This document shows positions 36,556-61,637 of a stretch of 64,000 nucleotides of DNA, piece after piece (within the stretch, counting starts at the first letter, position 1; every line of letters begins with the position of its first letter). Source of the DNA: Antedon mediterranea (lineage: Eukaryota; Animalia; Echinodermata); assembly GCF_964355755.1 (NCBI RefSeq), contig NC_092678.1:25251365-25315364 (forward strand). The letters are read 5' to 3'. Below the pieces are notes generated by a model. The model saw only the letters and a program-made list of their open reading frames with translations. It made no database searches and was not told the DNA's origin. Position numbers and translations under genes: made by a program.

Positions 36556-36859
36556 CACTACGTCACCCTTTTGGTTACCTTCACTCTATATGAATATGAA
36601 TAGATATTACGAAATTATGATAATATATAAACAGTAAAATATACTTAATCCTAGGCCTGCACATGGGGAGCTGTGACCTATACCATCGCAGTAGACAACA
36701 CCACTTTTAGCCTATCCTTAGGCCTATCTTTATGTTGCCCTGCTGGTGGTGGTGGTGGGCCTAGCCTAACTAACCACATAATATGTAACTAGGAAATACC
36801 TAAAAGGTCATTTAGAATAATCAGCAAGTCCTAATTAGTATGACAAACAAAACAAAAAT

Positions 36860-37500: not shown

Positions 37501-40500
37501 ATGGGAAATGTACAAGTGCAAGATTTTGCGCCTGTGCGTCAGGATGAACGGCGCGAACTGAACCTTGCGTGTCGAGTTACACCGCAATCATATCAGCAGG
37601 TACTTATGGAAAGTTTCTATATTTTACAAAATATGTGCATTTAGATTTATCAATATAAATTGATAATTATAACGTCATACCTTGAATTACCTTTCAAGGT
37701 AATTCAAGGTATGACGTGACTATGATTCAAATATTACAAAATATTAGTGGTATGACTGTTATTATTGATAAGAATGAAGTATACACTATTTTGTGTTTTT
37801 TCTATGAATTTCTATGTTTAATGAAAACTAATAATATTCTTTCTTTCAGCATGTAGATGGTGTTGCTGTAGAGGGTGCTCTAACTGAGCTTCCGTGGTCA
37901 ATCGTTGACTCTGTCTCTCTCTTTGAGGAAATGGATGCATCGTTCAACGAACTCACAAAAATACCACCAGAGATTCCGCTCCGTTTACCGCACCTCAACA
38001 CGCTGAACTTAAGTCACAATCGTCTGACGTCACTCCCCGATAGCTTTGCTCTCCTTTTTCATCTTAAAAGCGTGCTACTCCATCACAATCAACTTCAAAA
38101 TCTTCCGAAAACTTTCATTCATCTTGTTAAACTACAAAAACTAGATCTGTCGTTTAATAATCTGTTAACTTTACCAGAAAATATCGGTCAAATGGAGTCT
38201 TTAACGAAACTGAATGTGTCGGACAATCAACTGCATCGGATTCCTATTTCACTCGGTGGACCAAATAAAATGAAGGTTCTTCTGGCACTTAACAATCAAT
38301 GTCTGCTGCCACCACAGACAGTTTGTAATGAAGGCTCAGAGGCTTTGTTGAACTTTATTCGTCTTCAGTTTCACAATGGCAACCTGCCAAAAGTTCTGTT
38401 GCCAGGCAATATATTCCCGAGAGTGCGAGGTAAATAAAATGTTTCTCGTTCCTCAAATCATGTACATAAAATACTGTACTTTAAATATGGCAGCCTTCTC
38501 TAAACCACCCAATTACCCAGTATATTCCTCGTCGTATTGTATATTTATATTTATAGCATTCTCGTCTGTTTTAAACATCTCGCTACAGCCTTAGATATTA
38601 CTAATAAAAATGTCTTTATTTTCATGTAATTTACAGGTGATGTACTGAACTCATCTGTTGGTAACCCACACTCAGCTCGTGCTCAGTATTTACAGGAACA
38701 GACACAAACAACTAACACCACCAGCAGAATAAGAACACCGCTTAGACCCACACTTGGTGCTACCACCCTTGACGCTGATGAGCTTAGAGACAAGATTATT
38801 GGTAGATGCTTTGTATTCTTATTCACCACTTTGACTTAATGTGAAATGCATGAAACTTAAGTTAGTTAAGTTAGTTTAAACATAATTTAAAGACCAAATA
38901 GAATACATATAAAGTTGTTGCATGAATATTCATTCAATCTTTCTTTTTTTTGGAATCTCTTGACTGACTACAAGACAACGCCCTCTCCTCTCAGGAGGGC
39001 ATTCCACCTGGAGAGCATCTTTGACTTATATAAAACGTTGTCTATAATTGTTGAGAGAATATTGTGTCATAGGTTAAAGTTCAAGCTTAAGCTTATGTGA
39101 CCCTAAAATTCCTTTTTTTTTTCTATGTAGGGTTGATGTATGGAGCGGCAATTGGTGATGCACTTGGTCTCTGTACAGAGAATCTTACACAAGATGAATG
39201 CCAGTTTTATTATGAAGAAGATGATTTAATTTACAAGAACTCAATAAATGACAAACATCGGCTGCAGTGGGATAAAGGAGACTGGACTGCAGACTTTGAC
39301 CAGATGGTAATTTAAGTTAGCAACTGCTATTGGTTTATCACTCCTAATGAGCCCTCCAACGCTGCGTAGCCATTGTGTTCAATAGTAGGAAGAATGTAAA
39401 ACAAAGAAACTATTGATTTGATTTTTTTTTAATGTATTTTTGTGTCTCGTTTTGCTTGTTTGTGTTTGTTAGATTGTGTTTTACTTTATTTTAATTTTTA
39501 AAAAGTTTGTCAAAACTATAATTTAAAATTTGTGATATTTTTTTCTTGTCAGGTGCTTTTATTGGATTCCATTCTTCATTGGGCTGGAGTAGTGGATGAA
39601 CTGGATTTTGCGAAGCGTCTGTTTCTATGGAGTAAACATGGCTTTCCAGATCTTGGCGACACAAAAGGTTATGAGGAGTTTAGCAATTCTGTCGCAAAGG
39701 TAAAGTGACATCATATTGATATTAGGGACTTTGATGGTCTGTTGGCAGCCCTCCTAAAGCTCTGTCTACACTCTCAAACTAGTTTGACAAGAAAAAAGGT
39801 TGATGTACCCAAATATTGTAGTAATGTCATCGTGTCCATGGGCACATACCATTTTTTTTGTCACATAGTTTTATAGTGTAGACAGAGCTTTAGTTTTTAA
39901 AAAAGAATTGAAGTGTGAAAAGAAAAACACTCCTTTGTCTGTGGCTAGTTGGAAATAAACTTTGAATTTATTAAATAGATTTTTTTATATTTTGTGTAAT
40001 ATATAATATAGAGTTTTGGGTGCACAATGTATGTATAGAAGAACTGTTGAACTCCTTATATGTACCTCAAACTTTATATCTATAAATTGTTTTGTTATTC
40101 TATTTTGAAACTTTATTTTTAGGCTGTACATCACAAAGAATTTACCAAAAAACCGCACGATGTATCGCAAGAAATCTGGCAGAAAGCTTTTGACGAGGAC
40201 GACCCAGAGTCATGTGACCACCTAGCAGACAACGGTGCATTAGTGCGAACCGCGTTACTTGGAATTCCGCATTTTCACGATCTTAAAGAAGTGTCTAGCA
40301 ACGCTATCAGGATATGCAAGGCTACCCATTTTGATCCAAGGTATTATTACAAGATGACAGTAAACGTGTTTGCTACATGATAAAACCTATCTGTAGGTGT
40401 ATTTAGTCTTTTTATTGGAGGCGATAGACAGTGTAGATATTTTTATTACTCCTTTATAAGACTTGGGATTATATAAACAAGTATTAATATGCTTGCTGAA

Positions 40501-43500
40501 AGTAATTACAATGTCTGCCATTCAATCTTGGGTGTTAATAGAATGTAATAATAAGTCTGGTTTACAAACTACAGCTATCATTATATTTGGGCGGATTTGC
40601 TTTAAAAAAAATATACTTTGCAGAGAATAATATGTCCTTATAGATCCTGACTCTGAAAAACTATAAATTTAAATTGCAAATGTTTTTATTTAAAAAAAAA
40701 ATAATTATGGAAGACCTCAAAAGTAATTATTTTTACTATTTAATGGTTCTATATCATGGTTCTATTGCATGCTCATTTTTTGTAAGCATTTAAAGAATTA
40801 TTTGGGAGATTAATGACTTCGTTGAAAACAACCTGTAGTGTGTGCTGTCTATAACTGCCAGTTCTCCTCAGCTAACAAACAGAATATTAAGGTGTGATAG
40901 AAAACAAATAATAATCAATTTTTCCTCTCTTTTCAGATGCCGAGCCAGCTGTGTAATAGTGTCAGCCCTCATTGCGAGTATACTTCAAAATTCTCACCCA
41001 CTTTCAAACAAAAAGCACTTGGATGCTATGATATCTGGCGCCGTGGATTTAGGCAAAGAACAACTAAAAAGTTCAAATCACAAGAAACAACTTGCTAATT
41101 ACTGCAGTAAACAGTCTGTTGAACAGTATGTGCTTTTAGTTTCCTTGCATTCACAATAGTATTATGTAGTTTTTATTTAATAGGATAGCCTAAAGAATTT
41201 TAATAGTAATTAAAAATTAAAGCTCTGACTACACTATCAAACCTTATGTGACAACAAATTGTGATGTGCCCATATATGGACATGATGATGTCATACCATT
41301 ATCATATTTAAGCATATCACTACCACATTTGGTCATATCACTACCATTTTTGGCACATCACACTTTTTTTTGTCTGTTTTTTTTTTTTTTTTATTCAATT
41401 CACATTTATTCAGCAATATAAATAGTTACATTACAGGGATTTTACAGAGACAAGTAATTGTCTGTAGTCGTAAGACCCTTTAGAACAAAACAAGTATTAT
41501 CACAAAGAAAAAAAAAAAGTTTGATAATGTAGACATAGTTTAATATACTGTAAATGAAACGAAAACAGAAGAATAAACATCTCTAGTTTCTGATTGCGTA
41601 ATTCATTTATATCGTTCTTACCATAGAGTGGTCTACTAAAGAATGTACTTACTTGTTGATAGTAAGTTTTAAAAAGGTACCGGTAATTTTTGCAGTGAGC
41701 AGTTCACCTCATGACACAGAAACATGAGCTTTATTCTACAATGATTATTTTCTATTGTCTCGCTCCATGAAACACCTGACCCAGCGTGTCCTTAGTAAAC
41801 CTTTGGAAATGCTTTGAACTGTTTTGATACATTTGATCATTACATTGTGCGCACTAGTCCATTAAATAGTATTTATCACTGATTACCGCCATTCTTTGCT
41901 AAGAATGCGATGCAGGTGTGTCAATTATAACTTCCTTTAGCAGTATTTATATTCTCCTTACCTCCATCTTTCATGATATTGCCACCACAATGTATCACAA
42001 TTTGTGAAGTAATACATAATACAGGTGCTATGGCGTCACACCACAGTACAACGGTAAACAAACTCTATGGTTATCCACACCAGTTTGTTGTTTATGTTCA
42101 GTATTTGAAATGGTACATAAATTGTGTATGCACACAGCCACTGTCACACTCCTTTTTTTTCTTTTTTTTTTATATGTGAACTTTATTCAATCAATCGTAC
42201 ATTTGTTATAATGGTAACCACAATAAGGTATAATATTACAGTAGATTTTTACAAACAAAAAAAACAAGACCAATATAAATATAAATTATAAAATATATAC
42301 AATGATTATTTACAGTAATGATAAAAATAAAAATTAATTGTTTATATTGACTATTATTGGAAACAGAAGTTGAATAATAAAATACTGGAAAGTTTAGTTA
42401 GAGGTTTACAATCAATGGAAAAGATGAAAACATATAATATTGTAAGTATTAAAAGTAGCATTGTTTAGAGAGATTACTGTATATTGGCAACGGCCAACTC
42501 ATCAAGAGAACCCCTTGATTGTCAGCATACACTGTTTATGGTTCCCTTCTATAAATAAGGTGAAATAAATATATAAAAAATAAAACTGAAGTATCACAAG
42601 AAATTGAAACTAAAACAAACAAAAAATTCTCTAGTCTATGGCAACAAATGCATTTTTAAAAAGATTTTCGCCTATTTGTTCGATTTGGAACTTCCAAAAC
42701 TTACTTTCTTACGAACCTAGTATTGTGTGTATAATATTACATGTAGTATCACAGTAATATCACAGTAAGTTAAACATTAAAATTAGGTTTTTTATGTAAC
42801 ATTTTTCACCTGTAAGTATCAGTGAACGCAAAGTGCACGCTTAACAAGTTCTTAGATTAATATTCATATCATGCTGATGATCTATATTTGGTGTTTGACG
42901 AAAATATCAGATAATGCAAACATGTATACGACATTCACGTATCAGTGACCAGTGAACGTGATTTCTTTATATCAATGTTGTGTGAAGAAATCCCGATACG
43001 GGTCCATCCTTAATTGAAAATATTACCGACTTGTTTTTGTTTTCCCTGTTGATTGTAATGCGAGATATAAAGTAGTAGTATGCCTAGATCATTTGCATAT
43101 CTTAATTACATATTTGTTATTTTATCATTATATCTGCTGATGACATAATGTTGAAATATGGGATGCTAACTTGATTGCTTGGATTATGTAAAGAGACCAT
43201 GTCAAAATGGTTCTACTGCAGTTACTGTTTAAGTATTATTATTTTTTGGGGTAATCATACACACACCATGACTACAAAAAAAATCATGTTATTGCAGTAA
43301 CAATTACTGCAGTAGATTAATATTGAGATGATTTATTCTCATGAAGGGCTGACTGACATAATTAGTTCACTAAAAATAAATTTGCGGTATTTCCACCACC
43401 CACAAAGTAATCTTGTTGTGCATGCATGTCGCTTTCAAAATAAACTTTGGTTTACTTGGAGTATTCTCTATTTATGGTGTATGTCCTTTAATTCTGATTC

Positions 43501-46210: not shown

Positions 46211-47054
46211 TCGTCAAACCGAGGTAAGTTTACTTTATAGATTTCGTAGATATAAAGGATCATGTCTTAATCTACTACAGTTATTATTATTAGATATGTA
46301 ACTTATAATTATAATTATTAGAATCATAGGCGACAAGTTTTAACTTTAAAAAGGTTTAAGAAATCTCTATAATTATTTCTAAGTTCAGTGTTAGTGTCAT
46401 CTCATTATGACCCAACAAATGCAAGGTAGATAATGTATTATTCGTTTCTACGTTGGTGATATAAGACGACGAAAAAAAAGAAACCAATTAGTTGTCACGT
46501 TTACTTCAACATTATCAAATGTAACATTTGAAAATATATATTCTTTCGGATTTTGTCGCTAGTGGTGATTTTGAGACGAAATTGTACCAAGTGCGTGTAG
46601 ATTGATCAAAGTATTCTTGTCTGATTCTGAAATTAAAAACTGTGCTTTAGGTGAGCGTGACCGTACAGTTTAAATACATGACATCATGTGATATCATGTG
46701 TGTTGGCTAAGTGTCATCCTGGATACAATTCGTGCTTTATCAATAATTATTGTAACAGTTAATGGCCGGACATTAGTGGTTACGTAAATCGAGTCAAAAC
46801 TGTAACATGACGTGTTTAAACCGTCTAACCTAAATGAAAACCCATCTTTTGCCGCAAAGTAGGGGTAATGTGCACATTTTAAAGTGATGATAATACTTCT
46901 TTCTTCCCAACACATTCGGTGAAAAAAAAAGAGTAACAAAATCGGGCTGTTTTTGTGCACGTTTTGTGTTTGTAGTACTGGGTTGTTACTGTACACATTT
47001 AATCTTAAAAAGGATGAATGAAACAGAATACTAGGCCTACCGATGAAAATTCTC

Positions 47055-47282
47055 GTCAAGCACGTATTCGTCGTCAAGTACACATTCGTCGTCAAGTACG
47101 CATTCGTCGTCAAGTACTCATTCTTCGTCAAGTACGCATTCGTCGTCAAGTACTCATTCGTCGTCAAGTACTCATTCTTCGTCAAGTACGCATTCATCGT
47201 CAAGAACGCATTCGTCGTCAAGTACGCATTCGTCGTCAATTACGTATTCGTCGTCAAGTACGCGCCGCATTCGTCGTCAAGT
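47055..47282. repeat. 18-bp minisatellite, about 12 copies
   Basis: (gcattcgtcgtcaagtac)n. Confidence 0.9.
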
Positions 47283-47994
47283 AGGCCTACGGCCTACGAT
47301 GATACAACAAAAACCAACAGACACAGAAAATGTCACAAAATAAACAGAATATTATATATATTGCATCAATTTATTATTTTACCTTATCGATAATTATTCT
47401 TTTGTAACATTATATTTTGTTTAACTTTTTACATTTCATAAATTAGGCGACATAATTATAATGATTAAGAAAGAATGCAAACATAGTAATTTCATCATTT
47501 CGTTGATTTTGTCTACCATTACAATGATGTTTATTACTTTCGTTTGTGTTTAAATGCGCATTCTAGGAACTATGCGGTCAAAGTACACTTAGAATTAGAT
47601 CATTGTTTGTCTTTGTAGAATTGTGTTTATATGAGGATAACAAGATGTGTGCGGTTTGCAGGAAAAGACATTTAAATTGTAGTGTGATGGTACGTCCGTA
47701 CCATGATGAAGACGTGCGCGCTCAAAAACTGATAGAATCAGTACGGTTATGTTGTAAGCGCGAGTCACATTTATGATGTCACTGACGTGTGTTGAAGCAG
47801 ATTCGCAATACCTGTTGCAGGATATTGTTCCAGCAGCACATCCCTGGGCCTAGATGGGAGCAGGAACGCTAGTAGACCAAACCCAGTACCGTTTGGATCA
47901 TTTAGGGAATTACACACGTACCCGGGTATAATTATGTGTGCCTTTAAAGGCGTTCCATTACACCAGTCGACGATCGGTGGAGACTCGTGGCTTA

Positions 47995-48150
47995 AGCTTG
48001 GTTCCCACTAGTGACGAAACGCAAGAACGTAACGCAACGTAAGTGATTTGACCAATCACAAGCGATGGATTATAACACTGGCATGTCATTGGTCAAGTCG
48101 CTTGCGTTGCGCGTACGTCCTATGGTTGCGTCTCTAGTGGGAACCACGCT
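47995..48150. mobile_element. MITE family 2 (Harbinger-like)
   Basis: TTA-AGCTTGGTTCCCACTAG ... CTAGTGGGAACCACGCT-TTA, with internal inverted repeat gcaacgtaagtgatttgaccaat / attggtcaagtcgcttgcgttgc. Related internal sequence at about 52420-52630 and 61545-61637. Confidence 0.8.
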
Positions 48151-48274
48151 TTATTCGTCACAGGTTGCACACAACATTTCAGGCAAAAATGAAACTCGCT
48201 TTTGAAGCAAAATTAATCTTGTCAGTGACGATGGCAAAACGTACATGTCTTAGTTACTGAATCTGTCGCTATTT

Positions 48275-50691
48275 TCATTCACATGAACCTAATCTCATAG
48301 TCTTTCGAGCACACCTCAATTGTCCACCACACGGACATAATTGACCACTTCTTTGACCAATCCATGGATGTTGAAAACTGTGTACGTTACAGGTTGAGCC
48401 GATTGTTCCAAGGGGAGAGCACTCGCGGTATTGACCGCCTCTACTCACTACACAACAGGATCCTGAAGCCCTTTGTGTTGCGCAATCTAAATCTGTTTGG
48501 CAGGTCTGTTTAAAAATAAAGCAAAAATTCACCGTCAGTTTTATTTTACAATTGAATGGCAAATTCTGTGATTGGAATTTTAAAACTGCAGATAATAAAA
48601 TCTGAATATACAATCTAAATAATATTTGGCAAGAAGTGAATCTGCTAAAATATAAATGTCAGGTTATCTTAAATTGAATGAATGATAATAAATCATTGTA
48701 ATAAAGATAGAGCGTTCAAAAGATGATGAAGTAATTTATATTTATATCAACTTTGAATCTTGTTGATGAAACCTTAATGAACATGATCTTTATTATTTAA
48801 ATAGAAATTGAAAACCATTTAAAAATTAGTTTTGCTGGACTCGGAGCTTAATTGTTAGTAGAGTTCATTTTATCTGTCACTTTAGCAAAAATAACCATTA
48901 TTTGTAGTTTCTTCCATCACTAACTTTAAATGTCAAATTTATCAATTTTCGGTGCTTATTTTTACTCAAGGTTGTGAATCTTTATACTGACATTTTATAA
49001 GAATTTTATTGTACTGAATCTCCACATTATGGATGTATGTCCAGTACTATAGGCACATTTATTTATTTATTTCATTTCATTTATTTATTTATTTCACTTT
49101 ACAAATATATAAATATAAAGTGGAGGAGCCTAAAAGAAAGCAAAGCTTGTGGTGAATAGGCTCCTCAAAACAAACAAAAATTAAATATAAATAATATAAC
49201 ACAATTAGAAACTCCAAAAAAACAATTAAACTAATATCTTTTCTCTAACACATAAGTTTAACATGTTTAAAACTAAAAAAACAAGTAAAAATAGATTATA
49301 TAAATTATTTAAGAAATATCCAAATATATCAATAATAAAAGAATTTACCAAGAACCTTCAACCAATAATAGTTTAAATTGACGTTTAAATAAAGCACAGT
49401 TATGAGATTTTTTTAAGAGATAAAGGAAGAGAATTCCAGAGTTTAGGTCCAGTGTATACAAGGGTATTCATTTTAAGACTAGTTCGAGTAAATGGCAGGT
49501 GATACTGAAAAAAATTATTTAATGATACAAATTGTTGCCTATCAGAAAGGTAACTTCTAAACCATTTTTGAGCCACCCCTCTAATTCCATAGTTTGATAA
49601 TTTATGCAGTAAGATTTCATGATTAACTGTATCGAAAGCTTTGGAGTAATACAGAGTCACATTGTATCACACGTGGTGCCTGTATATCATGTTAAGGTTG
49701 ATTAATTGCCTATACATCAAACAAGCGACACCGTTTTCCGTTCCGTGAAACGGAACAAGTGTGATGATATTGCTTTACGAGAACGTTCGATAAAGTCGAA
49801 GCCGACATTTTAAGCAAAAATTTCATAGAATTCAATTTATTGACATCATTTCCGGTCAGTGTATAATACTTATTGGTTGTTACTAGGTCAGTGATATAAA
49901 AATTATTATGGGTAATGAATGGGGGCGTTGTACGCAAGATAGGTAATTAGCCAGGTACTTATTATTTGTCGTTCTGCGCTCTTTAAATGAAGACCAAACA
50001 TTTTACGTGCAATATTTTCTATTTTAATTACTAACTATACCTAATAAACTTCCTTATATGAGCATAATATAATTTCGTTTAAATTGAAAAAAAAATGTAA
50101 GCGGGCAGTTACCTTTTAATACGTTTGTTAAAAGACAAATTGATCGAAAAACCAATAACTTGTATTGCTATATTCTTGTATAGTAAGTATACATATTTAA
50201 TAGACAAATTACCGCAGTAATACCGAAGTATACATATTCAATAGACAAATTACAGCAGTAATACCAAAGATATGGTGAAACATACAAGATGAAATTCTTT
50301 GAATCATAGTTGTAATGGAGACTCGATCTATGTAGGCCCTACCTAGGCACCCATTGTGCCTTATTTTGATCAAATGTTATACTAACGTATTTAAATCCAG
50401 TCGAATTTAATTTAGTAAATTTAAATTTAAAATTTGTTGGTCGCGTTTAGCCCAGAATATTACCTCGCTGTCGAAAGAACACATCCCTATAGCCGCTAAC
50501 ATGCATACTCTTTATTAGATTAGATAAAATAATTGATAAAAGTTAGGCCTACTTACCAAAATAGATGGAAAACGTTTTTCTTTCCTCATATAATCGTCGT
50601 CGTCGTCGATATAATCAGATATATACATAGCACAAATTACTGTTGGAAGTAAAGTCAATAATACAAATAGTAGATTTGTATTTGGCATCAT
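48275..50691 (-). CDS. Secreted 10-Cys prokineticin/colipase-fold peptide precursor (paralog A)
   Basis: Exon 1 50691-50557 = MMPNTNLLFVLLTLLPTVICAMYISDYIDDDDDYMRKEKRFPSIL, followed by GTAAGT. Exon 2 48505-48275 (phase 0 after ttttaaacag) = TCQTDLDCATQRASGSCCVVSRGGQYRECSPLGTIGSTCNVHSFQHPWIGQRSGQLCPCGGQLRCARKTMRLGSCE*. Cys pattern C-x5-C-CC-C-C-CPC-C-C as in prokineticin/MIT1/astakine. Confidence 0.85.
49065..49660 (-). mobile_element. LINE (CR1/L2-type) reverse transcriptase fragment with internal deletion and 3' UTR
   Basis: SKAFDTVNHEILLHKLSNYGIRG...WFRSYLSDRQQFV joined to GPKLWNSLP; 3' hairpin gaggagccta...taggctcctc and (aaata)n tail. Lies in the intron of peptide paralog A. Confidence 0.82.
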
Positions 50692-52419
50692 TTCTAAGTT
50701 TCGTCTAAGTTCTCTTCTTTTTTACGTTAAGTACACACTTCTTTTTCTATTTATCCCGTTTGATCTACGCCGAACCGTGACGCCTAGAATAAATGTCTGC
50801 TGACGTGCCCAGTTGAGAAATACATCATATTCTGGTCAATATTCCTAAGTAACAACCTTACCTTCGCCGTACAACTTAAATTATAATTGTCTAACTTTTG
50901 GAACGAATCCTGGCGGTTTTTAACGATATCTGCAACAGTTTTTATAACAACATTTAGTCTTGATTGGATGATAATATAAGTGACGGATCCAATAGGAAAG
51001 CACCGCTTATTACCTTATACGAACTGCTTTCGTTATTTTCTTCTTACGTTCATCGATAATTGACGTTCCACAAATATATCGAACCATTCAACTCCTACTT
51101 TATTTCGTTAATTATATCAGTTTTTATCCGTACATTTGAGCATGATCTTAGTAATATTAAAATCGATCTATTTATCGATCTATCTTGGCTAGGTCAATAT
51201 CAAACAATACAAACAGAGAACCCATCCCTACAATAATTAATATTTTAAACAATAGTTCATAGAGCCAAAGCGACAGAGTGATATTGTTGTAATTTTTATT
51301 TCATTGTTATTAGGCCTACATCCTTGTTATTGTACAGTAATGTTGTAAATGCAACGTTTTTAGCCTTGCGGCTACGGGGCGGCCGTATGCGGCTACTTGT
51401 TGTGAATGTTATACCCGAATAAATAAATATTCTTTTTCTCTCTAACCAGTGTCATAAGAGTTCACAGCAGAAGTATTTGAGGCTCGGGTTGGGGGCGACG
51501 TCGGTGGTTATTTCAGCATTATATGTACGTTATAAGGATTCTTTTATTACTAATCTCTCTATCTAAACATTTTTTTTTCGCAGATGTCGTGATAGAGCAT
51601 TATATTTTACTAGCTTGGTTTCCTATCATACTCTTAAAAACCAATCTTTTTTCTATTTTTTTCTCTCAGCGCTTTGGGACAATCTTTTGATTGTATAAGC
51701 GCTATATAAATCGAACAACATTACATTATGGAACACTGATCAAAAATGATGATCCAAGCTATCGCTTGTAATTGGTCAGATTACCTGCGCCGACCTCTTG
51801 CCTTACGCACCAACTTATTTCGTTACGCACAAACGTATTGCGTTGCGTCTAAGTTTGAACCATTTGTATAATATATTATTTGCGTTGCATTCATTTGTTT
51901 TGATAAATTTTCCTACTTAAAAACGCGTCATCTGATATAATAACATTTTATTCAATATTTAAAATTATTTATTGACACTATTCCGGTATATTTAAAATTA
52001 AATTCAATAGAAATATTGAACGATTATTGAATACCGTATAATATGTAGACTATTCTATAAAGTACACATTACTTTTGAGATGGCTATCTTGAATGTTAAA
52101 ACTAATAATAACGAAAGACTATAACGTTGTGACCTTAAACGATCATTACTGTAGTAGGATGTGTATTATGCCAAGCATTCTAGTAATCTCAATGTCATTA
52201 CGATATGTATAGATACACTGTGTTTAGTTATTGAATAATAATCACCAATAATCATATATTCAAATTGCATGCATCGGATGGTGTTAATGTGTCTTACCGT
52301 TATATCTTATCATTATTGTAATACCGTTATTAGTTTTAAAGGAGTTGGATAGTGACGTTGATGATGACGTTGTTGTGCGCCATACAAGTAAGGGCGTATA
52401 TTGAACCAAAGTATTAACC

Positions 52420-52630
52420 AATCATAAGCGACAGTTCGGATGGTCCATCGTGACGCGATTGGTAAAAGTACGCGTTGCGCGCTTACGTACGCCCTTGCAT
52501 TGCGTCCCATTAGGACGCAACGTACGGACCTAAGCCGCAACGCAACGAATTGACCAATCAAAAGCGACAGTTCGAATAATCCATCGCTTTTGATTGGTCA
52601 ATTTGTTTGCGTTGTGTGGCTTAAGTCCCT
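52420..52630. mobile_element. MITE family 2-related fragments
   Basis: ttgaccaatcaaaagcga-cagttcgaataatcca-tcgcttttgattggtcaa hairpin, near-identical to 61569-61620. Confidence 0.7.
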
Positions 52631-53949
52631 GCGCGGCATCATAGGAAGTAAGTTGTTGTTTTGTTGGTTGAGCATTGAGAAACATAACTTGTAGGTCTAT
52701 CGTTGAATAATCAATTACTTTTTTTTAGTTTATGAGCTTATCCATTTAATAACAATATGAATTGCTTTGATTAACTGTGTGGTAATCAGCATATATTAGG
52801 TTTAAAGGTGTCAGAAATGCAAATGAGATGTTTGCATCACCATTATGTCCATCGTCATCATTATTATCCAATCTATCTCCTTCCTTCAGTAAAAGGTCTT
52901 AACTCAAAAACTGTTCTTACCTTTTATTAGAAGCATTTTGGTCACATTCGCTACCATGCAATATTCAGCCATTCTCAGTAAACGCAGACTACATTGCATT
53001 ATGTCATTTTTGTTGTGGCTCAAATCGAATATTATAATATTAATAATATACTATGTTTTAGCAGACACAGTAAAAGTTTGCTGAAATAGACTGATCATTT
53101 TAAAAAGTAAAATAATTATGTAATAATGCTATAAGGGCCCTATAATATAGTATTGGCATTATTTTGTCTGGCTGGAAGGGCTCCCTCTATATATCAAACA
53201 TAACTTTCTTAAACATTAATGTATACTGTGATTACGACTGATAAATTAAATGATTATAACTTGTATATATCCATCCATTGGTACGGTGTGGTATTGAACT
53301 TAAGAAATGCAAAGATCAACTTCAGGAACTTAATGTACGGTAGTTGTAAACGATCTTTCAGTAATTGAGAAAAATTGTTTGGACATTATCCCGAGGAGCT
53401 AAATCTATAGTAGGAAATGTCATAAAGTATGCGAAATCATAGTTTGTCACGGAATAGGCTATAATGAAGAATATATCTCGGCGGCATAGTAATGGAATAG
53501 GATGACGTCACTGCTCACCTTCTGTAAAAAAATGTTTCGTAATGTGTTGTGTTCATGTTATGTAAATTATTTCAATTCTATGTGTTTCTCTGTGTTTACA
53601 GTATATACGGTAATAATATATTTACCGGGCGGTTTCATTCCGTGCCTGTTAATTTAAATATCAATAATATATTGTTCAAAAACCACGCACAATTATATAA
53701 CATTATGTTATGACGTCAGCAATTGATGGAATCGTCCATAATGTTTAAATTACTTAAGTAACAAGTTGTCATGAATCCTGAAATAAATTCGTACCACCCA
53801 CCGCCATTTTGATAATAGATGAATACATTTTAATGCGGCGCGCACGCCACCTACATTTTTAGCCGGAGGCTTACATTATAACCGATCACTTACTTGGTAC
53901 CTTTTTTGTTTACTCTGTACACTGACGTCAGACTTTGGGTCGGTATCCC

Positions 53950-54560
53950 TGAGTTTTCCAATGATAAAATTTGCGGACGACTCGGCTATGGTTGGACTTA
54001 TTAATAATAACAATTCTTCTCTATACCTTTCTGAATAGTTAAGAAGTTAAATACAATTAGGCTGTACTGCCTGAGGAAACTCGGTTCGTTTGGAGTAAAG
54101 CAGGATATTTGTAAAATGTTTTACTCATCAGTGATGTTATCTATTTGGGGTTATTGTATGTTGGGCTGGGCTGGAAATATCAGTAAAGGGGATAAAGACC
54201 GAATTGAAAAGGTGCTGGGTAGAGCGGGGAAATTAATTGGTTCGTCTGTGCAAACGCTTTACTCTTTCTACAGCGAACGTCTTGCCGATGTGTTCCATGC
54301 TATATTGGAAGACACCAACCATCCTCTTCATAACGACATTATCGGCTCCGTTATCGTTAGAAGTGGTAGAATGAGGACGGTGAATGCACAGACGGACCGG
54401 TACAAGTACTCGTTCTACCCAGTTTGGATAAGGCATTATAACAAAACATTTGTTAGATAGTCCCATTTATATTTATTTATTTAGGCAAGCCAAGGTTTAT
54501 GAGCACTGTAATTTCCATTAATTTTTTGGACAATAAATGAATCTGTATCTGTATCTGTAC
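53950..54560 (+). mobile_element. LINE (Rex-Babar-like) RT fragment
   Basis: KFADDSAMVGLI (RT catalytic-type motif), RLYCLRKLGSFGV..MFYSSV, NHPLH...SGR...T.RYKYSFYP; (tgtatc)n tail at about 54541-54560. Confidence 0.82.
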
Positions 54561-55038
54561 AGATTATTATATAAGATAGTATTATCTCTAAGGAGAAAAC
54601 ATGATATGATAAGTTCATTTACAATTTTGTTTTAGAATTCCTTAATGAATGTACGCGTGCATGCTTTTCAGTGCATATCACCATGGTATCACCTACATCA
54701 TCATTTATATCAATCAATGTTATCTATGATGTTATTTTATATTATTTATATTACACAATATTTATAAACGCATGACTGCGATATTTTATCAGTTATGATT
54801 TCAGCTGATAACCTTTATTTCATTTATTAATATTTCAGTTAAATATGGTTTTATATTGAAGTTCAAATACAATTTTTTTTACTTTAACCATATTTAATGA
54901 GGGTGATCCATCCAGCATTTGCTGATCATTTGGGACCCCCAGAACAGATACAATATACAAAATACAACAAAAACAGAAAAGTAAAAGGAAAACAAAAAAA
55001 AATAAAATTAATTACATAAGACTAAAAATCCTTGACAA

Positions 55039-55072
<34 letters not shown>

Positions 55073-55340
55073 TTAGATCTACTATTTTACAATTAAAATC
55101 TGGAAAAGGATTACATAGTTTTGAGAAAAGTCATAAGTCTAGTTTTGAAAGAGGAAAAGGATGAGGAATTGCGGATAGATAGAGGATACATATATAATAA
55201 TTCATTTCCGGTTATTTTATTTATTTTTTTATTAGTCAAAAACGTCTTTTTTGCCAATTGATCGGAATATGTTCACCTCCTCTTCGCCTCCGTTCTTTCC
55301 TGTCTTATTACTTGTGTTGAATAAGGTGTTAGTTCCTGAT

Positions 55341-55475
55341 ATATATGTGTGTCCCCTTAATATATGTGTGTCCCCTTAATATATGGGTGTCCCCTTAATA
55401 TATGGGTGTCCCCTTAATATATGGGTGTCCCCTTAATATATGGGTGTCCCCTTAATATATGGGTGTCCCCTTAAT
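55341..55475. repeat. About 19-bp minisatellite
   Basis: (aatatatgggtgtcccctt)n, 6-7 copies. Confidence 0.88.
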
Positions 55476-56091
55476 ACGATACGATAGTATTTATTGTCAT
55501 TTTAACAACAATCAGGTACAAATGGCATTTGGTTGGTTTGTTTACATTTTGATTTACAGTACAGTACAATGAATACAAAAGAAGCGTGTAGCCAATGAAT
55601 GCTGCGTAAACGGCCTTCCATAGTAACCAATAAATAGGTGGTGTTTCCAAAGGAAAGGGAACGATATACTATATCCTGTATTAGGATTTCTGTATTTTGG
55701 TTTTATTCATAGATGGAACTTTTAGTTAGGAAGTATGAATTACGTCATAATACTATACTAAATCTTGTGTATTCACAATATTATATTAGTGATTCCAATC
55801 AAAGTGTATCAGGTTGGCCGGCAAGATTATGAGGGCAGCAAACACTATCTTTGCCATTGTGTGTTGATTGGCGAGATTACGATATAAAGTAGTTTTGTTG
55901 GCAGACTTCATGTGTAACTCCAGATTTTAATATTTACCTTTAAATTGTATTATTTACCTTTAAATTGTATTTAGAGGGCAGTCTAACGGAGACAGCATCT
56001 TGGAACCCATTTTAATTGCTGCAATTGTCCAGCGATGCGTCTATATTTTCTGTTTTTAGAAATGCGACAACCTGAAGATTTTTATAAATAG

Positions 56092-56190
56092 GCCTATAGA
56101 CTTGACGATGTCATATCACTAACAAATTTGAGCACAACCATATTTTGACAAACTTTTTTTGTCAAACTAGTTTGATAGTGTAGACAGAGC
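56092..56190. mobile_element. MITE family 1 right half
   Basis: gatgtcatatcacta ... gtcaaactagtttgatagtgtagacagagc. Confidence 0.72.
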
Positions 56191-57747
56191 ACTAGGGGGA
56201 TTTTAATTATTACCTCGATTTTTTATAAAGCATTTATTCGATTCAATATTTACGTATTACATTTTTAAGATAAACACGTTGATATATTTCAGTCTGGCTC
56301 CTTAAATATAAATTTGTACTTTTCATTAATCAGAGATAAATATAACTCTTACATAGGACGCCCTCTAAACGTTCTGTTGAATTCGTATTTATGAGTTTAA
56401 TATTTGTTTAGGTAGTATTGTGAAATTAATTTAAATGCCTATCAAATGTTTTTTTAAACACATACAATATTGAAAAGCGTATCGTTCACTCATTACGTCA
56501 TTCCGTCAAAATGACGTCATTCAGTCGTATATATCGACTAGATTAATTAAATTGTAGAGTATAGTTACAGTGTATATTGTAATTAATATGAAATAAATAT
56601 TTACCTGTCGTATGCCGTCAATCAGTCGTTTGATTATGGCCAACTTACTACCATACTTAGACCTTCCGGATGTCCTAATATGGAACATTAAGTATACTAC
56701 TATAGTATCAATTATAAATGTTAGGGTATTTCCCATAGAAAATAAAGGAAATATTCTTAGCATGATGTTTCTTTCTTTAAAAAAAAACAAAAATGTAATT
56801 TATTGGAACATTAAAATGTAAACATGATTGTGTTTCCATTAATGGGTTGACTAAAAGTGTGTTGGCCTATTACTCTAATTTGTGTTTAAATTATACATTA
56901 TTTTGTTTTATAATGTTCTCTTTTTTTTACAATATTTCGAATTGTTATGAATTAAATCAAACTCAAAATTCTTGCTCGATTTAATACGAAATATCTAAAA
57001 GAACCGCAACTTTACCCAGCGGCCATTTTGCAATATTTCCAAACAGCTTTTAAAATTGACTTTTATTAAATATAATGATATAATGAAAGCTGAAAGTGAA
57101 CTTTTTAGTCCACCCCCTTCTTTTTCTAACAAATGATAAATTTAATAATTTAAGATGACAATTCTGTTCATGTTTCTATGAATTAGCAGTTAGTTGTGTT
57201 GTTCTTGATTTGTACAACTGCTGATCGAGATAAATGTGCAATCATTTGAGAAGGCGTACATGTCTCATTTTGTCGTCTTCTGGTTCAAATTAAATTCCGT
57301 TATTTCCTTAGAGATCTGCCTTGGTCAATTTTCTTTCTAGAAACTGTTTACCCCGAAATCATTATTTTTGCCGCATGCAAAGATATTTAATAATAATAAT
57401 AATATATACTTATGCTATAGGCCTACACTTTTTTTAAAGCACATGGTAGATTTCTTAATGTTCTTTAGCCGCTCCGTTGTTCTCTGTCCCTCATTATTTG
57501 AACGCGCACGCGCGCGTTACATATGTGATATATGAACGCGCGCGCACATGTAGCAGTAGTATTAATTACTATGGCATTGTTTTAATTGTAGAGTGCATTA
57601 TCAACACTCATAGTTTTTTTTCTTTTGTATGAATAAAGTTATCTTATCTTCATATCTTATCATATACTATTTCTGTCAATATTTAGATATATTTTCTTAG
57701 TTTCTCATAGTTCAGTATATACAGTGGTTCAAATGAGAGAGTATTAA

Positions 57748-57902
57748 GCTCTGTCTACACTATCAAACCAGTTTGACAAAAAAGTATGATGTGCCCATAT
57801 ATGGTAGTGATATGCTTAGATATGGTAGTGATATGACATCATCATGTCCATATATGATTCACATTTTTTTGTCACTTAAAGTTTGATAGTGTAGACAGAA
57901 CT
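57748..57902. mobile_element. MITE family 1 copy
   Basis: Both TIRs. Confidence 0.85.
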
Positions 57903-60229
57903 TGAGGTAGGTTTGTTAATTTTTAACGTAAATCATATTTTCACATTTTTTAACTTTCTTGGTATGCGTAATTTAGCTATATATTTTGACGATATTTTAT
58001 TAATTTAATACCTGCAAACGACTTGATGTCTCCACTGTTAGAATGTACGTTCATTCATCATCTACAGTAGACCTAAGATCCGGTTCTACCTCAACTCAAG
58101 AATCTTACTTATAATGTTGCCTCTCCAATCACATTCTAATCACTAATCACATTGTCCTTTTGGCCTGTTGTTTACACCAAATTTAATTAAATTATCCATT
58201 CTTAATGTCATTTAGACGACATTAGAGACGGCTGAGCCCAAACGTGATTTCTTTACCAACGCGTGTATTTGTGGGTGCGGTTTGTGGCCAATGCCCCTGG
58301 CGCTGACCAAAATAAACTAGTATGTTACGACTCAGCTATGTACTGCATTCATATATTTTGGATAACAACACGTACGTGTACCTGTTGATATGAACTTCGA
58401 AGTCCTATTTACACATTCTTTTTAAATGTTATATAAGGTCCAAAAAATGTTACAAAACAAACATAAATCGGACATAATTATGATGATATAAGGCAAATGT
58501 TATAGGCCCTATATATCATTTTTAGTTAACTTAAAGTGCGCCGTTTACTGTCAATATATGTGTTGTTATAACTCATAATAGTGTAAATATAGGATATAAT
58601 AACTCTTTTTTATAATAGTTCTTAACAAATATTAATAATCTTTTAAACTAAATCGGATTCATGCTTACTTTCTCTCCCCTGTTGTACGTTGTGCGTCTCA
58701 CTTGTATATTTCTCGTCATCGTTTTATCAAACAGTCACAGTATCATCCTCTCATCATAACACATCCGCGTATATTCGTATTTTTATCAGTGTTTGTGCGC
58801 GCTCACCACAATTCAGTCGTTATATCATACAAAGTAAATCAAAATAGACACAATTTTCCATTCAAAATTCAATAATTTATTTTAACGTGTTCGTTGACAA
58901 ACAATAAATACAGTTTTTGTCCAATTTGTTTGACAAATACTGGACATACTATTAAATGACACTGTGGGTCATTTTTATCTCAATAACCTGACCCCGTAAG
59001 GCCAGACATGGAATTAATATTTAAATAAATAACCCCCTAGAAGTTGGCATTGGATGTGACACCTACTCATCACATAGTTTGGATTCCATACTATTGTATG
59101 TTGAGGTGTACATCACACAATCACAGTTAGTTTATGATATGTTGTAAAATATCACTGGCCGCATTGTTTACTGTTGTTTTAAACTGATAACAATTCTCAT
59201 TAATCATTAAAAAAATATTTTAAAGTAATAAATTCTGTAATAAAACAATCAAACAACTTCCTATTAATAATAATTATTCAATAAAAAATAGTTCAAGGTT
59301 GTTAAAAATATAACTTATTATTTGAACGCGCACGCGCGCGATACATATGTGATATGTGAACGCACACGCACGAGATAGATATGTGGCAGTAGCTTTTTAT
59401 TAATTACTATGTGTTTAATTAGCACCGTGTAGGATGTGGATTAGTAACCCATGGGGGGAAGCAGTCTTAATACCGTCTACATTACACATTTAAACGCAAC
59501 TCTTTATAAGGATATCGGTAGAAGAATAACATAAATGACGTCAAAATCTCGACGTTCCCATGTTAAAATTGAAATTGATAAATGAATTTGGTTTCGGTAT
59601 CAAACATAAAAGGAAACATTGTACGTGATACGTTAATATTTGTCTTTGGGGATTAAATACAATATTAAAAGTCAGTGCAATAAGGATTAAAATGTTAAAC
59701 TGTATAGGCTTAATAGCCCCTCCATGGTCAACTTATGACGTCATTTAAATAATTATCACTTTTACAATCGTAATTAAACAAACATGAGTGTACACATTTC
59801 AATAGTCTGCCTTTGAGAATAATTATTGTGCAAAATATCCTTCAACATATTCCAAACAAATGTCCACTTGAAATATCTTGTATTGCTACTTTTTCTTCTT
59901 AACTAATTTGTTACATAATTTATGTATAAAAATAAACATTTTGTGTATTGCACTTTATGTTACAAGGCGCCTTAATAAATAATGGCTATTAACAGTTTTT
60001 CACAACTTCTGTCCCATGACACAGCAGTTTCGTATCGGTGAGCTTCTTCAAATGGGAAACCTGCCCATTGCGCGTATTATAATTGTTCCGTTTGTACGCC
60101 GCCAGTTTGACTGAACGTACGCGCGCGGCTAATTCTTCATCTGGCACATAAGTACTGAAGTTTTACTATCTTCTTGTACCCTGCTTCTGATGAGGCTATT
60201 TCAGTATTCATTTCATTTTCGTACAATGT

Positions 60230-60820
60230 TCAGCCAGTAGCACATACACCCTTCCTCCGTCCGTTCGGTATCGAACAGTGTAAGCCCGATGAGCAGGGGC
60301 ATCTTGTAAATAGTTGGTCTGGTTGTATAGGGTTCGGCCTATTGACGCAAGTGTGCCCAACACCAGGCCGCCTTCGACATACTTGACGACCAAAATGCAT
60401 AGCACAACAGTGGCTGCTGGGACAGCCCGAGTTTGAATCACACATTGTTCCCATTGGCTACAAAAAGAAAATCAATCATTTAGAATACATAAATGAAGTA
60501 ATATACAAACGAATTTGAATGCATTTTTAGTCACAACATTTCGAATTATTTCGATGGCTCGAAAATAAAATAAATCGGCTGCAAATTAGGTACTGATGAT
60601 ACCGTACTATGTTTAAATTGTTCAATTAAACAGTAAAGAAGGCTTGATTTAAAGATATAAAATATAAACATGTGATAAAACTTACAACTTTAGGAAACCT
60701 CTTTTCTCTGTGATGCTCTTCTGTTTCTTCAATATCAATCACAGGACTGCCATTACACATGCAGGCCATACAGACAAACAGACAGAATAATACTGAAGTA
60801 TGTATCATAATAACTTCCAT
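60230..60820 (-). CDS. Secreted 10-Cys prokineticin/colipase-fold peptide precursor (paralog B)
   Basis: Exon 1 60820-60686 = MEVIMIHTSVLFCLFVCMACMCNGSPVIDIEETEEHHREKRFPKV, followed by GTAAGT. Exon 2 60457-60230 (phase 0) = PMGTMCDSNSGCPSSHCCAMHFGRQVCRRRPGVGHTCVNRPNPIQPDQLFTRCPCSSGLHCSIPNGRRKGVCATG*. Same 10-Cys pattern and exon structure as paralog A. Confidence 0.88.
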
Positions 60821-61544
60821 AATAAACCGTAGATAAAGATCCTTAAAACAATTCAAAGATATAGTTAAACAATATTGAGTTTTTTCGAATTCGAGCAGCT
60901 TGTCTTACTAAGCCTTGTTGCGTTGTTAAGTAAGTTGTCAGAATTTATGAATTTAAAATATGTTGATATGTCTTTATACTATCCAATCGGAAGTATAGAA
61001 ATTCCTCAAACCGCCGTATAATAGGTGCAATGCTATTGGCCAATGTAAACACGCCTACTTTTTAGAATAGCTTGGATCGCGCGACGCCCACTGTCTATTG
61101 TGACTTCCCATACCGATGCGTTACATCCGGGCTAGCTTGTTGCTAGGATGTTTTTATAGCCTTGTACAGTTTTAAAAATACTGTAGTGGTTTCATGTATA
61201 ATGAACTTTGAATGAATTATACATAAATGGCCATTATTATCATTTTATAAATTAAATATTTGTTTCAATTTGTGCACTATGCTGGAATTAAGATTATGAT
61301 TTACATTAACTAAATGCTAAAAATATGTTTCCATACTATAGCCAAATTCATTCTTTATTTCGGATATCATAATCCATATCAAATACTCAATTGTACTAAT
61401 AAAATAAAGAACCGATAGGAAAATATTTTTTGAATGAAGGACGGTAAAAAATAACAAAATAGCATTACACTAAATGTATTTTATTTCATACACAAAAAGC
61501 CGTCAGTTCTAGGGGTTACGTCACCAACAGGGCACCATTTTTAG

Positions 61545-61637
61545 GACGTAAGCGCAACGCAAGTGAGTTGACCAATCACAAGTGACAGTTCGAATAATCC
61601 ATCGCTTGTGATTGGTTAAATTACTTGCAAGTTGCGC
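61545..61637. mobile_element. MITE family 2-related fragment
   Basis: gcaacgcaagtgagttgaccaatcacaagtgacagttcgaataatccatcgcttgtgattggttaaattacttgc. Confidence 0.7.

What the first reader, a model, noticed from the sequence alone, without database searches (positions are those of the whole stretch)
48275..60820. Tandem pair of prokineticin-fold prohormone-like genes with a shared EKR/FP mature N-terminus instead of AVIT
Seen: two same-strand genes about 10 kb apart share one design: signal peptide, acidic spacer (DYIDDDDDY / DIEETEE), (R/K)EKR, then FP (FPSIL / FPKV), a phase-0 intron right after, and a 10-Cys C-x5-C-CC-C-C-CPC-C-C domain. The Cys domains are otherwise very divergent, yet EKRFP is identical. 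Established: prokineticin/Bv8/MIT1 need the N-terminal AVITGA, exposed directly by signal peptidase, to activate PKRs, and arthropod astakines lack it. Signal + acidic propeptide + KR is the typical layout of neuropeptide and venom-toxin precursors, and REKR fits the furin R-X-K-R consensus. Inference: a lineage-specific family of convertase-activated colipase-fold ligands or toxins in which the unmasked FP terminus may take the role of AVIT. The ORF track misses exon 1 of paralog A, so automated annotation could overlook the pattern.
Basis: partly seen in the sequence, partly recalled or inferred. Interest (0 to 1): 0.8.

Follow-up and report, generated by a model that had tools for sequence, protein, structure and literature searches.

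The report
Two prokineticin-like prohormones, one Dickkopf-like
Two neighbouring spliced genes, likely from an echinoderm, encode predicted secreted hormone precursors that carry an already published "RFP" signature; they are likely cut inside it to free a start that would do the job of the active end of vertebrate prokineticin, and one of the two looks more like the Wnt blocker Dickkopf than like prokineticin.

Summary
Both genes have two exons, a phase-0 GT-AG intron and ten cysteines. One run's contigs join both predicted junctions. The shared EKRFP uses different codons at 3 of 5 positions, so it is kept at protein level. The motif is not new: eLife 2024 (PMC11521371) reports a 'K/R-RFP-K/R' signature in ambulacrarian and Xenoturbella prokineticin-like ligands at the AVIT position. 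Gene A is an ordinary member: Pfam Prokineticin above cut-off, MIT1-like model, groups with sea star and acorn worm proteins. Two points go beyond the section I read. First, in 5 of 7 precursors the basic site lies six residues before Cys1, as the signal-peptidase site does in prokineticins, and gene A's intron matches PROK2 intron 1; this supports cleavage that frees the arm. Second, gene B is not A's sister (AU p 0.0001 and 0.0096). It belongs to an unnamed class with Dickkopf-CRD2 cysteine spacing, yet carries the prokineticin-type leader. LRP6-contact residues are not kept across that class. Cleavage, receptor and function are untested, and a toxin role has no support.

The parts
50557..50937 (-). 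Gene A exon 1: 5' UTR (to at least 50937) and coding part 50691-50557 = predicted signal peptide (about residues 1-21), acidic spacer, KEKR site, first five predicted mature residues FPSIL
   Evidence: X1 contig piece 50557-50937
50566..50580 (-). Gene A EKRFP motif (KRFPS; four of five positions of the published K/R-RFP-K/R signature)
   Evidence: PMC11521371
48506..50556 (-). Gene A intron, phase 0, GT..AG, 2051 nt; holds a decayed reverse-transcriptase fragment near 49400-49666
48124..48505 (-). Gene A exon 2: prokineticin-class 10-Cys domain (48505-48275, 76 aa + TGA) and 3' UTR to at least 48124; AATAAA at 48155
   Evidence: Pfam PF06607 33.4 bits > 21.6; MIT1 E 1.2e-8; model pLDDT 89.8, TM 0.82 to MIT1
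60686..60892 (-). Gene B exon 1: 5' UTR (to at least 60892) and coding part 60820 (or 60808)-60686 = predicted signal peptide (to about residue 24), acidic spacer, REKR site, four predicted mature residues FPKV
   Evidence: X1 contig piece 60686-60892
60689..60706 (-). Gene B EKRFPK motif, full match to the published K/R-RFP-K/R signature
   Evidence: PMC11521371
60458..60685 (-). Gene B intron, phase 0, GT..AG, 228 nt
   Evidence: joint 60457/60686 in X1, absent from X2-X4
59457..60457 (-). Gene B exon 2: 10-Cys domain with Dickkopf-CRD2-type spacing (60457-60230, 75 aa + TGA) and 3' UTR; a second X1 contig (58857-59455, similar depth) suggests the UTR runs on to about 58857
   Evidence: DKK1/2 E about 1e-6 versus Bv8 0.05
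60973..61039 (-). Putative core promoter of gene B (CCAAT at 61039, TATAAA at 60978); consensus match only
   Evidence: function inferred

Best explanation
Both genes encode spliced precursors that are likely secreted and likely cut by a prohormone convertase after the basic site, which would free a short hydrophobic arm starting Phe-Pro on a ten-cysteine colipase-fold body; gene A is the ambulacrarian prokineticin and likely acts like vertebrate prokineticin, its freed arm entering a GPCR pocket. Shown: gene structure, splicing, motif, domain class. Inferred: signal-peptide removal, convertase cleavage (KR for A, R-X-K-R for B), and that the acidic spacer keeps the ligand silent until cut, by analogy with prokineticin, where one added N-terminal residue makes an antagonist. 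Gene B is an old, separately evolving member of the same locus with a Dickkopf-like body; it likely uses the same leader and activation step, but its receptor is open (its arm is three residues longer). Odds: cleavage at this site about 0.75; A acts through a PKR-type GPCR about 0.55; B does too about 0.35.
For: Published signature at the AVIT position (PMC11521371 section 14). Register: Cys1 is residue 7 after the basic site in gene A, Patiria P0002 and Glandiceps P0005, and in X. bocki PK2 and the Meara precursor (counted by eye from supplement passages); 8 in X. bocki PK1; 10 in gene B: 5 of 7 equal the chordate value of 7. Arg at P1 in 7 of 7, dibasic in 6 of 7, R-X-X-R in the seventh, while spacer length and sequence vary. 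[quoted passage not shown] The N-terminal arm inserts in the receptor pocket and an added Met gives an antagonist (PMC8877203 passages). A: Pfam Prokineticin above cut-off, MIT1/Bv8 best by sequence and fold, groups with Patiria and Glandiceps at 94/90. Synonymous differences at K, R and P codons of the motif. X. bocki has three PKR homologues.
Against: No peptide or receptor data exist here. FP is kept in only 4 of 7 precursors. Trp24, crucial for PKR binding, has no Trp counterpart in A in the MIT1 alignment. I could not establish that echinoderms have a PKR: in the text of the eLife receptor tree two sea urchin sequences only border the PKR group. Protostome astakines lack a PKR and a different receptor was proposed (PMC8398477 passages). 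The A group loses its own branch in two of three trees, where vertebrate prokineticins sit inside the open fork. B fails Pfam Prokineticin altogether, and no exon 1 was found for any B relative, so its leader is shown in this genome only. A Nemertoderma fragment shows no basic site, but it lacks its 5' end and was not counted.
Confidence: 0.6

Rival explanations
1. Gene B is a one-domain Dickkopf: after cleavage its CRD2-type body binds LRP5/6 and dampens Wnt signalling, as the CRD1-less Hydra Dkk1/2/4 proteins do.
For: Best PDB sequence hits DKK1/DKK2 at E about 1e-6 versus 0.05 for Bv8; class profiles give 1e-6 to 3e-6 versus 1e-3 to 2e-4; spacing 5-4-0-8-9 equals DKK1 and occurs in 5 of 5 B-class rows and 0 of 20 prokineticin-class rows; B class joins the one Dkk fragment at 92/97 and 100/98; B keeps H204, F205, F234, R236 equivalents; Hydra Dkk1/2/4 lack CRD1 (PMC6425005 passages).
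Against: W206 is Gly in 5 of 5; H204 is Lys and R236 is lost in 4 of 4 relatives; V219, T221 and K222 are not kept (residue list from PMC9532339 passage, a secondary source). Pfam DIKK subdomain 17.4 bits < 27. By structure Dkk2 (Z 7.1, rmsd 3.1, 74 aligned) and MIT1 (Z 6.9, rmsd 3.6, 68 aligned) are tied on a weak model (pLDDT 64). Only one, long-branched Dkk was in the trees, with a long-branch warning. One B relative's best Pfam match is Prokineticin, below cut-off.
Confidence: 0.15
2. The proteins are processed as proposed but act like astakines, as blood-cell (coelomocyte) or gut cytokines through a receptor that is not a PKR.
For: Protostome prokineticin-like proteins lack AVITGA and a PKR and promote haematopoiesis (PMC8398477 passages; PMC8557429 passage). 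No Trp24 equivalent in A. Echinoderm PKR not established. The crinoid neuropeptide survey never mentions prokineticin (PMC9793003, term search, 0 hits).
Against: The conserved six-residue distance from basic site to Cys1 (5 of 7) fits a receptor that reads a free N-terminus; PKR homologues exist in Xenoturbella, which shares the signature.
Confidence: 0.15
3. RFP is a surface motif of an uncut protein; the basic residues bind a partner or glycans and the spacer stays on.
For: The eLife section describes K/R-RFP-K/R as a signature and does not call it a cleavage site. A lacks the P4 Arg; X. bocki PK1 lacks the dibasic pair.
Against: P1 Arg in 7 of 7 with a dibasic or R-X-X-R context, variable spacers, and the conserved register after the site.
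Confidence: 0.07
4. The pair are defensive toxins of the MIT1/Bv8/atracotoxin kind.
For: MIT1, Bv8 and a spider peptide are fold relatives; colipase-fold venom peptides from precursors with dibasic sites exist in an octocoral (PMC11896702 passages).
Against: Orthologue-like sequences run from Xenoturbella to acorn worm and sea star; only two copies in the window; PF17556 below cut-off; MIT1 and Bv8 act on vertebrate PKRs through AVITG, which is absent. That feather stars have no known venom system is recalled, not from a call.
Confidence: 0.03

Closest known systems
Ambulacrarian / Xenoturbella prokineticin-like ligands with the K/R-RFP-K/R signature (PMC11521371, Fig. 8 legend and section 14; X. 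bocki Prokineticin 1; RefSeq XP_077977878.1 Glandiceps, XP_038062132.1 Patiria)
   Same: Signal peptide, spacer, basic-RFP motif next to a 10-Cys domain, no AVIT; gene A's domain is 41-46% identical to the two named proteins and groups with them.
   Different: A ends the motif in Ser, not K/R. The section read does not discuss cleavage, intron position or a Dickkopf-like second class; I could not see the figure or the Zenodo alignments, which may already include B-type sequences.
Chordate prokineticins / AVIT family (PROK1, PROK2, Bv8, MIT1; PDB 1imt, 2kra; Pfam PF06607)
   Same: Fold (TM 0.82 to MIT1), CPC motif, five mature residues at the end of exon 1, Cys1 at mature position 7 (gene A).
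   Different: No AVITG, no Trp24 equivalent; the arm is predicted to be freed by a convertase, not by signal peptidase; the whole domain lies in one exon whereas PROK2 splits it.
Dickkopf 1/2/4 CRD2 (PDB 3s2k, 3s8v, 5fww, 2jtk), including CRD1-less Hydra Dkk1/2/4
   Same: Gene B: cysteine spacing 5-4-0-8-9, CCA-x-HF and F-x-R-C motifs, best sequence match.
   Different: No CRD1 in the spliced contig; W206 replaced by Gly; H204 and R236 not kept in relatives; CPC as in prokineticins; prokineticin-type RFP leader.
Protostome astakines and spiralian prokineticin-like precursors (oyster, Platynereis)
   Same: AVIT-less colipase-fold secreted proteins; the Platynereis precursor also carries processed peptides between signal and domain (PMC3890597 passage).
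   Different: They are reported to lack the RFP signature and a PKR.

Membership tests
Ambulacrarian RFP-type prokineticin-like ligands | K/R-RFP-K/R signature | tested here: met
   B: KRFPK, full match; A: KRFPS, four of five positions
Ambulacrarian RFP-type prokineticin-like ligands | Signature adjacent to the N-terminus of a 10-Cys domain, AVIT absent | tested here: met
   Both genes
Ambulacrarian RFP-type prokineticin-like ligands | Domain of the prokineticin class (gene A) | tested here: met
   PF06607 33.4 > 21.6 bits; groups with Patiria and Glandiceps 94/90, open fork
Ambulacrarian RFP-type prokineticin-like ligands | Domain of the prokineticin class (gene B) | tested here: not met
   No PF06607 match at E <= 1; separate branch; A class + B class as one clade neither shown nor rejected (p-AU 0.144, 0.104)
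Chordate AVIT family (PROK1/2, Bv8, MIT1) | N-terminal AVITG exposed by signal peptidase | tested here: not met
   Absent in both; acidic spacer follows the signal peptide
Chordate AVIT family (PROK1/2, Bv8, MIT1) | Ten cysteines, colipase fold | tested here: met
   A model pLDDT 89.8, TM 0.82 to 1imt; B model pLDDT 64, colipase-fold hits
Chordate AVIT family (PROK1/2, Bv8, MIT1) | Trp at mature position 24 | tested here: not met
   No Trp in that loop of A or B (alignments)
Chordate AVIT family (PROK1/2, Bv8, MIT1) | Exon 1 = leader + first five mature residues | tested here: met
   Gene A five residues, gene B four versus PROK2
Chordate AVIT family (PROK1/2, Bv8, MIT1) | Activates PKR1/2-type GPCR | not testable with these tools
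   No genome held; no assay
Dickkopf 1/2/4 (gene B) | Two Cys-rich domains (CRD1 + CRD2) | tested here: not met
   X1 contig joins the leader exon straight to the single domain; no further colipase-type exon in the window. Hydra orthologues also lack CRD1
Dickkopf 1/2/4 (gene B) | CRD2 cysteine spacing 5-4-0-8-9 | tested here: met
   5 of 5 B-class rows; DKK1 read; table
Dickkopf 1/2/4 (gene B) | Pfam DIKK1-2-4 C-subdomains above cut-off | tested here: not met
   PF21481 17.4 < 27 bits, PF21479 no match; relatives 13.9, 14.3 or none
Dickkopf 1/2/4 (gene B) | LRP6-contact residues (H204, W206, V219, T221, K222, R236 and others) | tested here: inconclusive
   B keeps H204, R236, has I209V and K211R, loses W206, V219, T221, K222; 4 of 4 relatives lose H204 and R236
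Dickkopf 1/2/4 (gene B) | Binds LRP5/6 and inhibits Wnt signalling | not testable with these tools
Colipase-fold venom peptides (MIT-like atracotoxins, octocoral colipases) | Pfam PF17556 above cut-off | tested here: not met
   B 20.5 < 27.5 bits; A no match
Colipase-fold venom peptides (MIT-like atracotoxins, octocoral colipases) | Expression in a venom or defence tissue | not testable with these tools
   One run of unknown library type, contigs only

The most novel reading that the evidence does not exclude
Gene B is a Dickkopf-derived CRD2 domain placed under the prokineticin prohormone leader, or a surviving intermediate between the two families, sitting next to the true prokineticin gene. 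Deuterostome ancestors would then have had a convertase-activated, modular 'RFP leader + exchangeable colipase body' system, from which chordates derived AVIT by dropping the pro-segment. L001, where two B-type last exons lie 127 nt apart, would be the same modularity used through alternative splicing.
Probability: 0.25. Interest if true: 0.65.

Novelty: new variant of a known kind. Interest (0 to 1): 0.38.

Why it matters
Prokineticin signalling has, in the papers I searched, no tested ligand-receptor pair outside chordates. The register and intron evidence name a precise mature peptide to make and test, and suggest how the AVIT terminus arose: same arm, different protease. Gene B points to an unnamed class that sits between prokineticins and Dickkopf CRD2 and is missed by both Pfam cut-offs. 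The core motif is already in print, so the gain is incremental unless B proves to be a real Dickkopf-prokineticin link.

Tried and rejected
No whole genome is held, so no search for further copies, for a canonical Dkk1/Dkk3 or for a PKR was possible. Word-based homologue searches found nothing for either exon 2 and only the input P0023 for the B-class alignment (1 of 15 candidates); these cover limited lengths and show no absence. The profile search returned 24 proteins at E <= 0.001; names were looked up for all but none of the B class carried one. The Atlas did not hold gene B, P0023 or P0005; for P0002 all feature scores were under 0.9, a lead only. No listed run is on record as RNA. No DNA similarity between the two genes beyond chance (best blastn E 0.006 over 26 nt); no third colipase-type exon among 2,900 six-frame fragments (next best E 0.19-0.82). 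Structure does not separate Dkk from MIT1 for B. L001 holds no basic-RFP motif in the 488 nt before its first exon, so conservation of the leader in class B is untested. Trees: 79-80 columns only; P0008 (same domain as P0007) and cluster members P0025-P0055 were left out of all trees, and P0012 was dropped after as a long branch; long-branch warnings were given in all three. Literature: ten searches turned up no functional study of RFP-type ligands and no description of a one-domain Dkk-like echinoderm class; Mirabeau and Joly 2013 and the Dkk1-LRP6 structure paper were not held, and the eLife Figure 8 image and Zenodo alignments could not be seen. Rejected: chance motif, pseudogenes, recent duplication, toxin.
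Full report
Observation. Gene A (minus strand) has a coding exon 1 at 50691-50557, a 2051-nt GT..AG intron and exon 2 at 48505-48275; gene B has 60820 (or 60808)-60686, a 228-nt intron and 60457-60230. Both introns are phase 0, both second exons hold ten cysteines, both first exons give a hydrophobic stretch, an acidic spacer and EKRFP. Predicted precursors are 121 and 120 (or 116) residues. In run X1 one contig covers 48124-48505 and 50557-50937 with nothing between, and another joins 60457 to 60686; three DNA-like runs run through that intron. This is one run whose RNA status the tool only guesses, but the joints fall on the GT-AG ends. EKRFP occurs twice in the six frames of the window, both here, and shuffles give a shared 5-mer in 21 of 200,000 trials. 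Three of its five codons differ silently between the genes and the genes share no DNA similarity, so the motif is kept by selection on the protein.

Organism. No genome is held. The nearest named relatives of A are from the sea star Patiria and the acorn worm Glandiceps. Unreviewed notes on other pieces of this genome call it a feather star; my data fit an ambulacrarian but do not test the class.

The motif is known. [quoted passage not shown] Gene B matches it fully (KRFPK), gene A at four of five positions (KRFPS). That section does not call it a cleavage site. I could not see Figure 8 or the Zenodo alignments.

Gene A. Exon 2 passes Pfam Prokineticin (33.4 bits, cut-off 21.6), hits MIT1 and Bv8 at about 1e-8, and its model (pLDDT 89.8, 22-sequence alignment) matches MIT1 at TM 0.82, rmsd 1.5. 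It is 41-53% identical to six ambulacrarian or unnamed domains and groups with them at 94/90; in the two later trees that group is an open fork that also holds the vertebrate prokineticins.

Evidence for cleavage. Counting from the basic site, Cys1 is residue 7 in gene A, Patiria and Glandiceps and, by eye from supplement passages, in X. bocki PK2 and the Meara precursor; it is 8 in X. bocki PK1 and 10 in gene B. Five of seven thus equal the chordate arm (AVITG-x-C). A 5'-incomplete Nemertoderma fragment without a basic site was not counted. Arg stands at P1 in 7 of 7, in a dibasic pair in 6 and as R-X-X-R in the seventh, while FP follows in only 4 of 7. [quoted passage not shown] Four unnamed relatives show Gln just before the domain, as a phase-0 CAG acceptor would give (inference), and L001 shows such acceptors directly. 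In prokineticins the arm enters the receptor pocket and one added Met gives an antagonist (PMC8877203 passages), so a pro-segment would have to be removed. The step itself is inferred; no peptide data were available. Against a PKR: no Trp24 counterpart, and an echinoderm PKR could not be established from the text of the eLife receptor tree, though X. bocki has three.

Gene B. It does not match Pfam Prokineticin and stays below cut-off for the Dickkopf, colipase and MIT-like models. Its best PDB sequence hits are DKK1 and DKK2 CRD2 (E about 1e-6; Bv8 0.05), and profiles of its class agree. Four unnamed relatives at 40-49% identity were found: P0004, P0023 and two exons in L001. All five have eight residues between Cys4 and Cys5, as DKK1 does; 0 of 20 prokineticin-class rows do (10, 11 or 14). 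In trees the class joins the single Dkk fragment (77/73 with a further long row, then 92/97 and 100/98), with long-branch warnings. A and B as sisters is rejected (p-AU 0.00013, 0.0096); the two classes as one clade is not rejected (0.144, 0.104). Structure does not decide: Foldseek ranks Dkk2 and Dkk1 first, but VIA gives Dkk2 Z 7.1 and MIT1 Z 6.9 on a pLDDT-64 model. Of DKK1 residues listed as LRP6 contacts (PMC9532339 passage), B keeps H204 and R236 but not W206, V219, T221 or K222, and all four relatives lose H204 and R236. So B's body is Dickkopf-like in build, but Wnt antagonism is not a conserved property of the class on this evidence. CRD1-less Dkk1/2/4 are known from Hydra (PMC6425005 passages). 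No leader exon was recovered for any relative, so the RFP leader on a B body is shown in this genome only.

Mechanism. Most likely both precursors enter the secretory pathway, lose the signal peptide, and are cut after KR (A) or R-X-K-R (B), which frees a Phe-Pro arm on a disulfide-locked body. A would then act as the ambulacrarian prokineticin on a PKR-type GPCR; B would share the activation step with an unknown receptor. Rivals are a one-domain Dickkopf role for B (0.15), an astakine-like non-PKR cytokine (0.15), an uncut motif (0.07) and a toxin (0.03). Processed pro-segments before colipase-fold domains also occur in Platynereis and an octocoral (PMC3890597; PMC11896702; passages), so the layout is not unique.

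Papers seen: PMC11521371 (section 14, passages, supplement passages of files 1, 2, 8); PMC6188537 (passages, supplement passages); passages only of PMC8398477, PMC8876856, PMC6425005, PMC11896702, PMC8877203, PMC9532339, 10.1101/265579, PMC8557429, PMC3890597, PMC5818035; term search with no hit in PMC9793003. Ten literature searches showed no functional test of RFP-type ligands and no description of the B class; the library lacks most subscription journals.

Verdict. Real, spliced and conserved, but the headline motif is published and gene A is an ordinary member. What is added is the register and intron argument for convertase activation, and gene B as an unnamed Dickkopf-like variant under the prokineticin leader. 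New variant of a known kind; interest 0.38.

Noticed in passing
L001:489-719 and L001:846-1076: Two B-class exons in tandem, each with its own phase-0 acceptor and stop codon, about 127 nt apart, and no leader exon in the 488 nt upstream: likely alternative last exons on one shared leader. No RNA evidence.
   Followed up: partly
window about 2400-31000, + strand: Many-exon reelin-like gene (Reelin_subrepeat-B E 1.8e-12 for one exon, 25745-26146).
   Followed up: partly
window 22939-23316, + strand: 125-codon open frame with a coiled-coil-like stretch among the reelin exons; only weak Pfam hits (CEP63 E 0.006). Could be an inserted exon or a repeat remnant.
   Followed up: partly
window about 34000-36700, - strand: Likely TraB-domain (TRABD-like) gene; weak Pfam TraB hit E 0.034 for one exon.
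   Followed up: partly
window about 37800-43000, + strand: Exons for leucine-rich repeats followed by ADP-ribosylglycohydrolase exons on the same strand: possibly one LRR-ADPRH fusion gene; splicing not checked.
   Followed up: partly
window 47994-48151, 51756, 52400-52620, 61540-61630: Palindromic MITE-like repeat family, very high depth in all runs; one copy bounds gene A's 3' UTR.
   Followed up: partly
window 49400-49666 (-) and 53823-54460 (+): Decayed reverse-transcriptase/LINE-like fragments in gene A's intron (RVT_1 E 0.0015) and between the genes (no Pfam hit; read from the ORF text).
   Followed up: partly
window 60426: Run X2 carries a change that turns Gly11 of gene B's exon 2 into Asp, the residue DKK1 has at that place (D194); other listed coding variants of B are silent.
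   Followed up: partly
window 1740-2415, 13135-13624, 47017-47297, 55322-55495: Short tandem repeats (18-19-nt units) that give long spurious ORFs.
   Followed up: no
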